Numbered from the stretch's first letter, positions 16,708 to 18,793 are shown. The stretch is 64,000 nucleotides of DNA from Candidatus Poribacteria bacterium (GCA_965116925.1 OZ220744.1:384001-448000); one strand, 5' to 3'. The notes: generated from the sequence alone by a model not told the origin. Translations and numbers: made by a program.

Positions 16708-16734
16708 TTAAGGGGTGAGTGCCCATTCCAGTTT
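16708..16734 (-). pseudogene. Displaced native 3' end of the sigma factor gene (KLEWALTP*); also the predicted TnpB guide region
   Basis: Directly follows the RE TCAA; joins in frame to sigma ...YLKNE at 18179. Confidence 0.75.
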
Positions 16735-16930
16735 TTGACTGCTCCCAAAGTTGAAACATTGGGATTCTTAATAGACTGATTGGTAGACATTTTCTGTCTC
16801 CATGCTATTTTCTTGCTTCATCGATTCTTGCCTCATGTTGCAGGTGAGGACTTACAAAATCTCCACCCCGATAAATCGGGATCCTTGCGGACAAGCGTTT
16901 TACGTCTCCGTGTGTCCCACGGCGACGGTT
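16715..16930 (-). ncRNA. Predicted TnpB omega (re)RNA scaffold plus ~16-20-nt guide AAACTGGAATGGGCACTCAC (5' boundary approximate)
   Basis: Position overlapping the tnpB 3' end through the RE hairpin; AACGCTTG...GGAG...GTAAG...GATGAAGCAAGAA motifs resemble tnpB 3' regions. Confidence 0.65.
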
Positions 16931-18000
16931 CTGAGGTTTATCGCAGCGTTAAGGTCTCGGTCTTGGGTATGCCCACAATCACTGCAATGGTAAGTCCTAT
17001 CCGATAGTGACAGGTCTTTGTCTTTTGCCCCACAAGCCGAGCACGTCTTACTCGACGGGTAGAAGGTGTCTGCTTCTACAATTTTAACGCCTAACCGTTC
17101 TGCTTTGTATGTGAGCATAGACAGAAAACTGGATAATGAAGCGTCCGATAATGCCTTTGCAAGTCTGTGGTTTTTTAACATACCGGCGACATTTAGCGAC
17201 TCAATCCCAATACGACTCGCACCATTGACGATAGCCGTTGTTGCTTGGTGTTGGGCATCTTGTCGGATACAGGTGATTCGGTAGTGCAGCTTGGTAATCT
17301 TGGCTTTCGTTTTACGCCAATTGCTGCTGCCTTTCTTTCGACGGCTTAACTGACGTTGCAGCCGTTTTAGCTTCCGCTCGTAACGCTTTAAGGCTTTGGG
17401 GTTTTCGTGATATACACCTTCGGACGTGACCGCTAAGTGATTGATACCTACATCAACACCAACAACAGGCAGATGTCCATTGGCAACAATAGTATCGTTA
17501 GCGAAAGTATCTACAGTGATAGAAGCGAACCAACGGTTAGCAGTTTTGGAGATTACAACTTTGACGATAGTGCCGAGGTGTCGAAGTGTTTGGAACATGC
17601 GAACCCAACCGATCTTAGGTAGTTTTATACGCTGTCCTTCGATAATAGTTGTGCCCCGACCTGCGTCTGCTTGGAAACTTTGACCCCGTGAACGCTTCTT
17701 GAACTTAGGAAACCGACTCTCACCTGCCTTCCAACGCTTAACAGCATTCTGAAAGTTGAAGTAAATCGCATTGTGAGCAGCACGTTGGTTTAACGCGTCA
17801 CACCACTCGTATTGCTCTCGCTTGACAGCATTGAAACGTTTGTTTAACTCTATATGACTGTGCCACTCACCATTGGCTAACCCTTCTTTGAAATCAGCAA
17901 GGACGTGGTTATAGGCAACACGAGCATAGCCACAATGCTGTGCAAATTGAGTAGCTTGGACGTTGTTCGGATTCAGTGCTATTTTGTGTGTTTTTAACAT
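16900..18000 (-). CDS. tnpB: RNA-guided endonuclease TnpB
   Basis: RuvC-I GVDVG, RuvC-II IESL, RuvC-III DRDLNAAINL all intact; zinc finger CSACG...CSDCG. Confidence 0.96.
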   Translation of the reverse strand: MLKTHKIALNPNNVQATQFAQHCGYARVAYNHVLADFKEGLANGEWHSHIELNKRFNAVKREQYEWCDALNQRAAHNAIYFNFQNAVKRWKAGESRFPKFKKRSRGQSFQADAGRGTTIIEGQRIKLPKIGWVRMFQTLRHLGTIVKVVISKTANRWFASITVDTFANDTIVANGHLPVVGVDVGINHLAVTSEGVYHENPKALKRYERKLKRLQRQLSRRKKGSSNWRKTKAKITKLHYRITCIRQDAQHQATTAIVNGASRIGIESLNVAGMLKNHRLAKALSDASLSSFLSMLTYKAERLGVKIVEADTFYPSSKTCSACGAKDKDLSLSDRTYHCSDCGHTQDRDLNAAINLRTVAVGHTET

Positions 18001-18095
18001 TGGATGGTCTTGCTGTCTTGCGTGTCCATGTCAGTGGATTGTGGAAGACCCTACCGTGCGATAGGGCTGACATGCTCTCACCGAAAGACAAACCA

Positions 18096-18124
18096 AATAT
18101 ACCATTTTTTGCCAAGAAAACCAA
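18096..18124 (-). promoter_or_regulatory. Putative sigma70 promoter for tnpB inside the left end
   Basis: TTGGTT-17 nt-TATATT with TGn extension; followed by branched stem-loop 18027-18074 (CATGTCAG...CTGACATG). Confidence 0.5.
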
Positions 18125-18130
18125 CTAAAA

Positions 18131-18793
18131 TTACGCCGTCTGACCCAACGCTAAAGCATTGGGATTGTCTTTGGGATCTTCATTTTTCAGGTACGGAATC
18201 AGAAGGGTTCGGAGGCGTTTATGGGCATGGTGGAGATGCGCTTTGATTGTACCTTCAGATCGATCCAACTGTGCGGCAATCTCCTTCAATTGAAGTCCAT
18301 CGTGATAGCGCAGGTTAAAGACATGCTGCTGTTTGGGCGGGAGTTGCTGTACCGCTTGACCAATGATTTGTCCAAGCTCTTTCGTTTCTATCTGGTCTGG
18401 CGGCAATGGACTTACATCGTTAAAAGCTGCTTCATCGTTGCCCCCTGTGGGTAGGTCCTCAAACGACAGAGGCTGTCCCCGTTTTTGTTGGCGAATGAAG
18501 TCAATACACAGATTGACGGCAATCCGATAGAGCCAACTATAGAATGCCGATTGTCGTTTGAAGTGAGGCAAGGCGCGGAAGGCTTTGATAAAGATCTCTT
18601 GAGAAAGATCTTTCGCTGTTTCGGAGTTAGGCACATACTTATAAACCAAGTTATAGATCTTCCCCTGATATCTGGTGACTAGCTCGTTAAAAACTTCCTG
18701 TTCACCGTTTTGGAATCGCTCGACAAGCTCTTTTTCGTCGGCAGGCAGAGGTGTGGGTGTTGAAGATGCGAATAAAGTGTTGCGTTGAATCAC
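18131..18793 (-). CDS. ECF-type sigma-70 factor; last 15 aa encoded by the IS left end (start probably GTG 18793; ORF open from 18856)
   Basis: Region 2 (AKDLSQEIFIKAF...FYSWLYRIAVNLCID) and region 4 (LPPKQQHVFNLRY...EIAAQL...GTIKAHL); AAGGAG RBS. Confidence 0.93.
   Translation of the reverse strand: MIQRNTLFASSTPTPLPADEKELVERFQNGEQEVFNELVTRYQGKIYNLVYKYVPNSETAKDLSQEIFIKAFRALPHFKRQSAFYSWLYRIAVNLCIDFIRQQKRGQPLSFEDLPTGGNDEAAFNDVSPLPPDQIETKELGQIIGQAVQQLPPKQQHVFNLRYHDGLQLKEIAAQLDRSEGTIKAHLHHAHKRLRTLLIPYLKNEDPKDNPNALALGQTA

What the first reader, a model, noticed from the sequence alone, without database searches (positions are those of the whole stretch)
16708..18182. tnpB element inserted in a sigma factor gene: ends, TAM, guide and swapped C-terminus all reconstructable
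The sigma gene's last 15 codons (DPKDNPNALALGQTA) contain a hairpin that closely resembles the right-end hairpin. The RE has the IS608-type guide/cleavage pair GAAT/TCAA. Applying the same pairing rule to the LE foot CAAT predicts cleavage after TGAA, which is present at 18182-18179. Excising 18178-16735 restores an in-frame ending ...YLKNE-KLEWALTP*. The element thus leaves a translatable regulator with a new tail. Its catalytically intact TnpB is predicted to carry guide AAACTGGAATGGGCACTCAC and to cut the empty sigma allele next to a 5'-(A)TGAA TAM, which would favour retention or homing.
Basis: partly seen in the sequence, partly recalled or inferred. Interest (0 to 1): 0.75.

Follow-up and report, generated by a model that had tools for sequence, protein, structure and literature searches.

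The report
TnpB transposon family replacing start codons
This is a small jumping gene that landed in the last codons of a sigma-factor gene, which is ordinary; its right end, however, carries a ready-made ribosome-binding site and start codon, and most of its sister copies sit exactly on host start codons and appear to restart translation of the gene they interrupt.

Summary
Observation confirmed: a 1,444-bp tnpB-only IS200/IS605 element (18178-16735) sits 3' of TGAA, 8 codons before the stop of an ECF sigma gene in a Poribacteria genome. 24 of 24 orthologue loci lack tnpB and keep the old tail. Guide and cleavage tetramers covary (CAAT/TGAA 44, CAAG/TGAC 21 copies).

The sigma link is incidental: any coding insertion gives a new tail, this one deletes a Trp kept in 24 of 24 orthologues, and no cognate tnpA was found in this genome.

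The notable part is the family. The right end carries GGAG plus an ATG (16790) reading 18 codons in the frame of NTG-AA|N. With this module, 28 of 42 sites are followed by a long in-frame ORF (ftsI, nadD, pgsA, mnmG, ribBA); without it, 6 of 56. A second Poribacteria family repeats this (22 of 36 sites; leaders 44/50/53/56 nt; 0 of 10 frame-shifted copies). In the sigma copy the module is idle.

Translation is inferred, not shown. Ten literature searches found no report. This scan noted the idea before on other DNA (e1-776829, e1-6856999).

The parts
18131..18856 (-). ECF sigma-70 gene, filled allele (longest ORF from TTG 18856, 241 aa; likelier start GTG 18793 behind an AAGGAG site, 220 aa)
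   Evidence: (PF04542, PF08281); the start choice is read by eye from the sequence
18179..18182 (-). Target tetramer TGAA (C_L, predicted TAM), host DNA
16735..18178 (-). tnpB-only IS200/IS605 element, 1,444 bp, no target duplication
18169..18178 (-). 10-nt left-end linker (rare variant; a near-identical one is in L116)
18164..18167 (-). Left guide tetramer G_L, CAAT
18144..18166 (-). Left-end hairpin
18131..18178 (-). New 15-codon sigma tail plus TAA, read from the left end
18096..18124 (-). Possible sigma-70-type promoter for tnpB (TTGGTT-17-TATATT)
   Evidence: by eye; not flagged by the consensus scan; weak
16900..18000 (-). tnpB, 366 aa, RuvC triad D183/E267/D349 intact
16735..16900 (-). 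Predicted omega-RNA scaffold region (5' limit unknown)
   Evidence: inferred from position; fold z-score only -1.17; no Rfam match
16798..16801 (-). Right-end Shine-Dalgarno-like GGAG
16737..16790 (-). Right-end ATG (16790-16788) and 18-codon leader MSTNQSIKNPNVSTLGAV, in frame with NTG-AA|N targets; here it runs into a 44-codon ORF that is not the sigma tail
16744..16767 (-). Right guide GAAT (16767-16764) and right-end hairpin (16766-16744)
16735..16738 (-). Right cleavage site TCAA
16708..16734 (-). Orphaned original sigma tail (KLEWALTP*); its first 20 nt are the predicted guide
14714..16549 (-). recQ-type helicase gene downstream, also next to the sigma gene in most same-genus orthologue loci

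Best explanation
The element is a non-autonomous IS200/IS605 transposon. A Y1 TnpA supplied in trans inserted it 3' of TGAA, chosen by the CAAT guide (ends, target and covariation shown; the TnpA step inferred). At this site it landed 8 codons before the sigma stop, left sigma regions 2 and 4 whole, and was tolerated (position shown; tolerance inferred). Its family has an added device. TGAA is the tail of NTG-AA, a start codon plus the first two bases of a Lys or Asn codon. The right end carries a ribosome-binding site and an ATG whose frame runs through the end hairpin and TCAA into AA|N. When the element lands on a start codon, the host gene is most likely translated from the element's ATG with a 14-18 residue N-terminal extension, while the old start makes a 10-residue peptide that stops in the left hairpin (anatomy and site distribution shown; translation inferred). 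Such copies probably get locked in as the native start, SD or TGAA decays, which would explain why they are over-represented (inferred). The SD and AUG lie in a stem of the predicted omega-RNA, so guide-RNA use and host-gene translation probably compete (inferred). In the sigma copy the junction is at a codon boundary, so the device is idle.
For: Sites: of 118 copies in 13 genomes, those with SD + in-frame ATG (class set from element sequence only) have a frame-AA|N ORF of 100 or more codons directly after the end in 35 of 49 copies, 28 of 42 sites (other frames 1 and 2); copies without it 6 of 61, 6 of 56 sites. Sites not seen when the idea was formed: 16 of 25 against 4 of 45. 22 of 26 such sites outside G000 have a G000 orthologue whose start codon is at the junction. 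Background in G000: start-like TGAA 1,428 of 74,688 (1.9%), 10.4% of start plus intergenic sites, 22.9% for ATGAA alone. Controls: short TGAA-type copies with the same left end but no start 0 of 10; the other right-end type in G000 1 of 29. Module: 48 of 48 copies have the ATG 56 nt from the end with no stop, while the SD-ATG spacer takes 15 sequences of 6-8 nt. Replication: a subtype ending GTCAG, 5 of 9; a second Poribacteria family (TnpB 53% identical) with another leader of 44, 50, 53 or 56 nt, 22 of 36 sites, against 0 of 10 copies whose leader is shifted one base. Targets include ftsI in G000 (only tblastn hit; orthologues start ATG AAC in 3 of 5, and a fourth carries a different element there), nadD (only over-cut-off copy in G014 and G017), pgsA (G008), NAD kinase, mnmG, ribBA, fmt. 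Only 2 of 31 start sites have a native start with SD within 15 codons. Native SD or start is lost or changed at several sites (G000:6184510, G000:90199, L052, L060, L075).
Against: No RNA, ribosome or protein evidence: the one read-laying run had only contigs and one raw run with 0 reads laid. SD and AUG are paired in a hairpin (opening cost 5.7-9.9 kcal/mol in 9 copies), so their conservation is partly explained by structure and initiation may be weak. 14 of 42 module-bearing sites have no in-frame ORF of 100 or more codons, this one included. Short copies with an SD + GTG start show little enrichment (1 of 7 sites). 4 of 9 GTCAG-type copies and 14 of 36 second-family sites are negative. NAD kinase has a second over-cut-off paralogue and nadD and pgsA have weaker ones; essentiality is recalled from other bacteria. 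Genomes are kin, so p-values (8e-9; 0.008) overstate. Gene starts in the background come from a crude ORF caller. ATGAA is also common at non-start sites of the second family, so some targeting bias is possible.
Confidence: 0.8

Rival explanations
1. The SD and ATG are by-products of an omega-RNA stem. Start-codon sites reflect a TnpA preference (ATGAA, AT-rich single-stranded DNA), and the downstream genes are silent or use other starts.
For: SD and AUG are base-paired, and a similar stem exists in the sister subfamily without an ATG. ATGAA is the commonest pentamer (15 of 33) and has a 22.9% start-like background. No expression data.
Against: Short copies with the same left end but no start are at 0 of 10 start sites. 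Leader lengths in two families differ by multiples of three, and frame-shifted leaders are at 0 of 10. Housekeeping genes stay intact behind the element. Alternative starts with an SD exist at only 2 of 31 sites.
Confidence: 0.1
2. Rescue is real, but the excess of start-codon sites comes mainly from TnpB homing: guides that match conserved coding starts keep finding intact empty alleles in the population, as inteins and homing introns do, rather than from a decay ratchet.
For: The excess is strongest in long, tnpB-type copies (18 of 29 sites) and weak in short ones (2 of 9 with a start). Coding targets stay near-matched: 10 of 18 same-genus sigma orthologues keep TGAA and 3 or fewer guide mismatches.
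Against: 14 of 37 start-site copies scored have no intact tnpB ORF by my extraction, against 3 of 12 elsewhere (short contigs and a strict N-terminal pattern inflate both). The left hairpin is missing in many start-site copies (11 of 13 sites without a detected left end are start sites). Both fit long residence after immobilisation. The two causes can act together.
Confidence: 0.25
3. The sigma insertion is an early domestication, as in TldR repressors or dCas12f-sigmaE activators, or the new tail is adaptive.
For: tnpB lies directly behind an ECF sigma gene, and sigmaE-dCas12f partnerships are published (PMC12259090, abstract). Contigs of two runs from different studies run from the flank into the right end without a break, so the allele may be fixed in this lineage.
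Against: The nuclease triad is intact. Both ends are intact and the TnpB groups with ordinary mobile copies. 0 of 24 orthologue loci have tnpB. The same tail appears at unrelated genes.
Confidence: 0.04
4. The element removes itself from the mRNA by splicing, as IStrons do, so neither the new tail nor the leader matters.
For: It sits in coding sequence, including genes recalled as essential.
Against: No Rfam match in 16400-19100 at E up to 5. Only about 180 nt lie before tnpB and 165 nt after it. Mid-gene sites are rare, unlike IStrons. No 16734-18179 joint was listed in the RNA run, though coverage there was patchy.
Confidence: 0.02

Closest known systems
IS608 / ISDra2-type IS200/IS605 elements (PMC5934647, passages; PMC10055086, passages)
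   Same: Subterminal hairpins, right pair GAAT/TCAA as in IS608, guide-directed insertion 3' of a short motif with no duplication, guide/target covariation, intact TnpB with the flank as predicted guide.
   Different: Target TGAA/TGAC with guides CAAT/CAAG (a search for TGAA with TnpB, TAM and IS605 gave 0 papers). No tnpA in this copy. An SD + in-frame start sits inside the right end.
IS1341-group tnpB-only elements (definition recalled)
   Same: Ends plus tnpB only; short derivatives of about 400 bp with the same ends.
   Different: Strong bias to start codons and a leader that fuses to the host ORF.
IStrons (10.1101/2023.11.20.567912 and PMC13521648, passages; PMC4227781, search listing)
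   Same: A TnpB transposon made tolerable inside genes by a function of its right-end RNA; probable conflict between guide-RNA folding and host-gene rescue.
   Different: No group I intron. Rescue is by restarting translation, works only at start codons, and leaves a 14-18 residue extension.
SXT/R391 ICEs at prfC (PMC7251087, passages)
   Same: A mobile element enters the 5' end of a gene and a functional hybrid protein is still made.
   Different: One fixed site and an integrase. Here the target is a 4-nt motif, there are dozens of unrelated genes, and one generic leader serves all.
IS607 TnpB with AGGAG TAM, ISFba1 (PMC11061315, passages)
   Same: The target motif coincides with a translation signal.
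   Different: IS607 type, and the motif resembles an SD rather than a start codon. The paper's main text has 0 hits for ribosome, Shine, RBS or start codon.
TldR and dCas12f-sigmaE (PMC10705468, search listing; PMC12259090, abstract)
   Same: A TnpB-family gene next to an ECF sigma gene.
   Different: Those are nuclease-dead with conserved linkage; this is nuclease-intact, bounded by transposon ends and unique to one lineage.

Membership tests
IS200/IS605 (IS608-like) | Hairpins near both ends | tested here: met
IS200/IS605 (IS608-like) | Guide tetramers matching cleavage tetramers | tested here: met
   CAAT/TGAA 44, CAAG/TGAC 21, TAAG/TGAC 3, other 10, of 78 copies scored out of 118 (2 of the 10 are mis-picks of my pattern); IS608 pairs as in PMC5934647
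IS200/IS605 (IS608-like) | Insertion 3' of a short motif without target duplication | tested here: met
   empty alleles
IS200/IS605 (IS608-like) | Y1 HUH TnpA acting on these ends | tested here: inconclusive
   none in this copy; not found in G000 (best 30% identity; no match at E 1e-20); L047 has the same left end with a PF01797 gene; activity not tested
TnpB OMEGA nuclease | RuvC D-E-D triad and TnpB family match | tested here: met
   NF040570 over cut-off; D183/E267/D349
TnpB OMEGA nuclease | Expressed omega-RNA ending in flank-derived guide | not testable with these tools
   only contigs available; no Rfam family
TnpB OMEGA nuclease | Cleavage next to a TAM equal to the TnpA target | not testable with these tools
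   inferred from PMC10055086 passages
IS1341 group | tnpB as the only gene between the ends (definition recalled) | tested here: met
IStron | Group I intron in the element | tested here: not met
IStron | Precisely spliced mRNA | tested here: inconclusive
   no joint listed in one patchy RNA contig set
TldR / dCas12f-sigmaE | Inactivated RuvC | tested here: not met
TldR / dCas12f-sigmaE | Conserved linkage to the partner gene | tested here: not met
   0 of 24 orthologue loci

The most novel reading that the evidence does not exclude
Poribacteria IS200/IS605 elements whose target is NTG-AA have turned their guide-RNA scaffold into a portable 5' leader. It lets them colonise the start codons of arbitrary genes, including essential ones. 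The same RNA then serves either as TnpB guide (aimed at the empty allele of that gene) or as the mRNA leader of the host gene, so TnpB binding could throttle the host gene and the host becomes dependent on the element's right end: a splicing-free counterpart of IStrons.
Probability: 0.55. Interest if true: 0.85.

Novelty: new variant of a known kind. Interest (0 to 1): 0.72.

Why it matters
If true, it is another way, besides splicing (IStrons) and fixed-site gene repair (SXT at prfC), for a mobile element to live inside genes. It would explain how a 4-nt-target TnpB transposon persists in ftsI, nadD or pgsA. It gives a testable case of one RNA acting as both guide and mRNA leader, a route to new N-termini and to regulation of host genes by TnpB, and a practical warning that genes annotated as broken by tnpB at their start may be intact. 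It also adds a natural CAAT/TGAA versus CAAG/TGAC pair and candidate TGAA-TAM TnpBs. The sigma insertion by itself matters little.

Tried and rejected
Upstream TGAA (18189-18186) as left boundary: rejected. ATGAA as a strict target: rejected. Sigma-TnpB partnership: rejected. Group I intron or any Rfam RNA: none. Self-targets of the guide in G000 (TGAA plus at most 1 mismatch in 12 or 3 in 16): none printed. Y1 hits in G000 are at most 30% identical to the L047 TnpA and were not counted as the partner. Left-end pattern in metagenome contigs: 0 hits. Reads: raw run X21 laid 0 reads, so no test. X1 and X2 contigs reach only 28 letters into the element, under the tool's 31-letter bridging rule. 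One X5 contig stops exactly at 18179 with 72 unplaced letters, which may be an empty allele but was not resolved. X5 also holds the rimK-type copy, but an RNA-library contig does not show transcription. Runs with small shares were not used. AlphaFold of the empty-allele sigma (14 sequences, mean pLDDT 65.6) leaves the tail as low-confidence coil, so it says nothing on tail function. The promoter/terminator scan was at chance level. Distant TnpB loci L177-L200, apart from L179, showed no comparable end by my pattern. The g1-type SD-ATG motif was found only in that genus (9 of 121 genomes). Rows dropped: L039, L043, L044, L045, L047 from the 118-copy set (other or no right end); L228 from the second family (end not found); 40 of 118 copies without a scored left end.

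Full report
1. The observation. The minus strand carries an ECF sigma gene (18856-18131), a 366-aa tnpB (18000-16900) and a recQ-type helicase gene. TGAA lies at 18182-18179 and TCAA at 16738-16735; removing 18178-16735 gives ...YLKNE-KLEWALTP*. The two hairpins match at 19 of 23 bases, with feet CAAT and GAAT, and TnpB keeps D183, E267 and D349. Of 31 genomes searched, 27 matched the sigma protein and 25 came as loci. All 24 non-self loci lack tnpB and keep a KLEWALN-like tail, with the Trp in 24 of 24. Titles of related loci name Candidatus Poribacteria, and the best-matching labelled runs are sponge metagenomes.

2. Ends and target. Of 37 copies (30, 7 in G000), 33 have TGAA exactly 10 nt before the hairpin foot; the base before it is A15, T10, C5, G3. 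Across 78 of 118 copies with a scored left end, CAAT goes with TGAA in 44, CAAG with TGAC in 21, TAAG with TGAC in 3, and 10 are other. This is the IS608 rule (PMC5934647, passages) seen as natural covariation. L047 has the same left end and a PF01797 tnpA, with a TnpB only 31% identical to ours. No such tnpA was found in G000, so this copy is probably immobile now, and the retention role of TnpB (PMC10055086, passages) would apply only if tnpA or an empty allele arrives. Ten of 18 same-genus orthologues keep TGAA with 3 or fewer guide mismatches. Contigs of two runs from different studies pass from the flank 28 letters into the right end, one with 3 differences in the flank; no empty-allele joint was listed. 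This suggests the allele is shared between strains, but it falls under the tool's bridging threshold.

3. The sigma tail is incidental. The left end is open for 15 codons in the codon-boundary frame, and the same tail is added at L054 and L056. Sigma regions 2 and 4 end at residue 216 of 241, before the junction at 226. The lost Trp is conserved, so some harm is possible; a shallow AlphaFold model did not resolve the tail. Nothing links this to TldR or dCas12f-sigmaE systems (PMC12259090, abstract): the nuclease is intact and the linkage is unique.

4. What the sister copies show. In the first 37 copies many junctions read NTG-AA|N at gene starts, and the right end holds GGAG, a spacer and an ATG that reads MSTNQSIKNPNVSTLGAV into AA|N (in the window: 16801-16798 and 16790). 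I noted this, then collected 116 right-end matches in 13 of 29 genomes and fetched the 84 not yet held. The pooled set is 118 copies: 84 new, 25 of the 30 earlier loci (5 dropped for another or no right end) and 9 in G000. Classed by element sequence alone, SD + ATG copies have an ORF of 100 or more codons in that frame in 35 of 49 copies (28 of 42 sites; other frames 1 and 2), SD + GTG short copies in 2 of 8, and copies with no start in 6 of 61 (6 of 56 sites). Two of those six (L040, L054) are degenerate members of the ATG lineage. On sites new to the second batch the split is 16 of 25 against 4 of 45, and 22 of 26 positive sites outside G000 have a G000 orthologue whose start codon is at the junction. 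Background from a crude ORF caller: 1.9% of TGAA sites are start-like, 10.4% of start plus intergenic ones, 7.6% for TGAC, 22.9% for ATGAA. Short copies with the same left end and no start score 0 of 10; another right-end type in G000 scores 1 of 29.

5. The module behaves like a ribosome-binding site. In 48 of 48 copies the ATG is 56 nt from the end with no stop; 47 keep GGAG, with 15 spacer sequences of 6-8 nt. Selected by the motif downstream of the codon, 48 of 49 keep ATG. Against this, SD and AUG pair in a hairpin of the predicted omega-RNA (opening cost 5.7-9.9 kcal/mol), so structure explains part of the conservation.

6. Replication. A subtype ending GTCAG, found by a separate motif search, gives long fusions in 5 of 9 copies: ftsI, a dioxygenase, dam, ubiX, fmt. 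A second Poribacteria family was reached through L176 (TnpB 53% identical). I scored 51 of 52 loci: 30 returned and 20 picked from the top of 156 matches (which scored at most 4 candidates a genome), plus L176 and L179. 38 copies (36 sites) have an SD + start in frame AA|N, with leaders of 44, 50, 53 or 56 nt; 22 of 36 sites are followed by a long ORF. Of 13 others 2 are, and both have a usable start nearby; 0 of 10 copies with a leader shifted by one base are. Fifteen of 23 of these ORFs have Pfam hits at E 1e-8 or better, several from the first residues.

7. Genes hit. nadD, NAD kinase, pgsA, mnmG, ribBA, thiO, cysH, a cytochrome oxidase subunit III and a rimK-family gene. nadD is the only over-cut-off copy in G014 and G017 and pgsA in G008; NAD kinase has a paralogue. 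In G000 itself a copy sits on the start of a class B PBP gene, the only tblastn hit in the genome, among neighbours I recognise from their sequences as rsmH, mur genes and mraY (labels recalled, not scanned); I call it ftsI on that basis. Orthologues start ATG AAC in 3 of 5 genomes, one differs, and one carries a different element at the same codon. Only 2 of 31 start sites have a native start with SD within 15 codons. At G000:6184510 the left end and native SD/ATG are gone, and at G000:90199 16 nt including the A of ATG are gone; L052, L060 and L075 have changed native starts. Essentiality of these genes is recalled from other bacteria.

8. Mechanism. Shown: ends, target, covariation, module, site bias. 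Inferred: TnpA in trans; translation from the right-end ATG; lock-in by decay of the native start; competition between guide use and translation, by analogy with IStrons (10.1101/2023.11.20.567912 and PMC13521648, passages). Not shown: any transcript, peptide or cleavage.

9. Novelty. The element is an IS200/IS605, IS1341-like member. Ten searches returned no listing that describes start-codon replacement by such an element; I saw listings and passages, no whole texts or supplements. The nearest precedents are IStrons, SXT at prfC (PMC7251087, passages) and AGGAG-TAM IS607 TnpBs (PMC11061315, passages). Earlier notes of this scan state the same idea for other genomes (e1-776829, e1-6856999, e1-1430640). 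I read them after my tests and do not count them as evidence. The sigma insertion alone would merit about 0.3; the score of 0.72 is for the family device that this copy carries.

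Noticed in passing
G000:C1:4472922-4474365 (L146) and L162: Two different elements (TnpB 73% identical to the window's in L162, other linker and right end) sit on the same PBP/ftsI start codon in two genomes: independent insertion or replacement.
   Followed up: partly
L247, L253, L260, G000:C1:3017450, L082: A native ATG lies 0-3 nt after the right end, 6-10 nt behind the GGGAG(G) of the end hairpin, which may serve as a replacement SD: a second form of rescue.
   Followed up: partly
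window 16734-16726 versus left-end linkers of L038, L054, L117: The target's 3' flank resembles the family's left-end linker shifted by one base. Other flanks do not, and the flank is fixed by the KLEW codons; probably chance.
   Followed up: partly
L042, L048, L056, L057, L070 versus most copies: Two linker classes contain a pentamer and its reverse complement (CTGGA / TCCAG), possibly a micro-inversion.
   Followed up: no
L045, L047: A distant TnpB clade (about 31% identical) shares the same left end, so TnpB cargo was exchanged between identical ends.
   Followed up: partly
L079-L089, L118-L141 (several): Sister subfamily with guide CAAG and target TGAC, TnpB about 74% identical, mostly without a right-end start and mostly intergenic.
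   Followed up: yes
G000 whole genome: 38 or so IS605-type right ends and more than 20 tnpB-like loci, but no cognate tnpA found, whereas 15 of 19 same-genus genomes have a Y1 match at E 1e-20.
   Followed up: partly
L043 / L094: The tnpB of the copy at the pgsA start is split by a second insertion sequence (IS3-like by recalled sequence features), while the right-end module is intact.
   Followed up: no
window 18120-18000 (tnpB leader): Earlier notes describe a folded 5' leader RNA before Poribacteria tnpB genes (e1-7797088); this copy has a conserved stretch there.
   Followed up: no
L092, L096: Module-bearing copies at apparent start codons whose downstream frame stops after 15-20 codons; possible frameshifts or assembly errors.
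   Followed up: no
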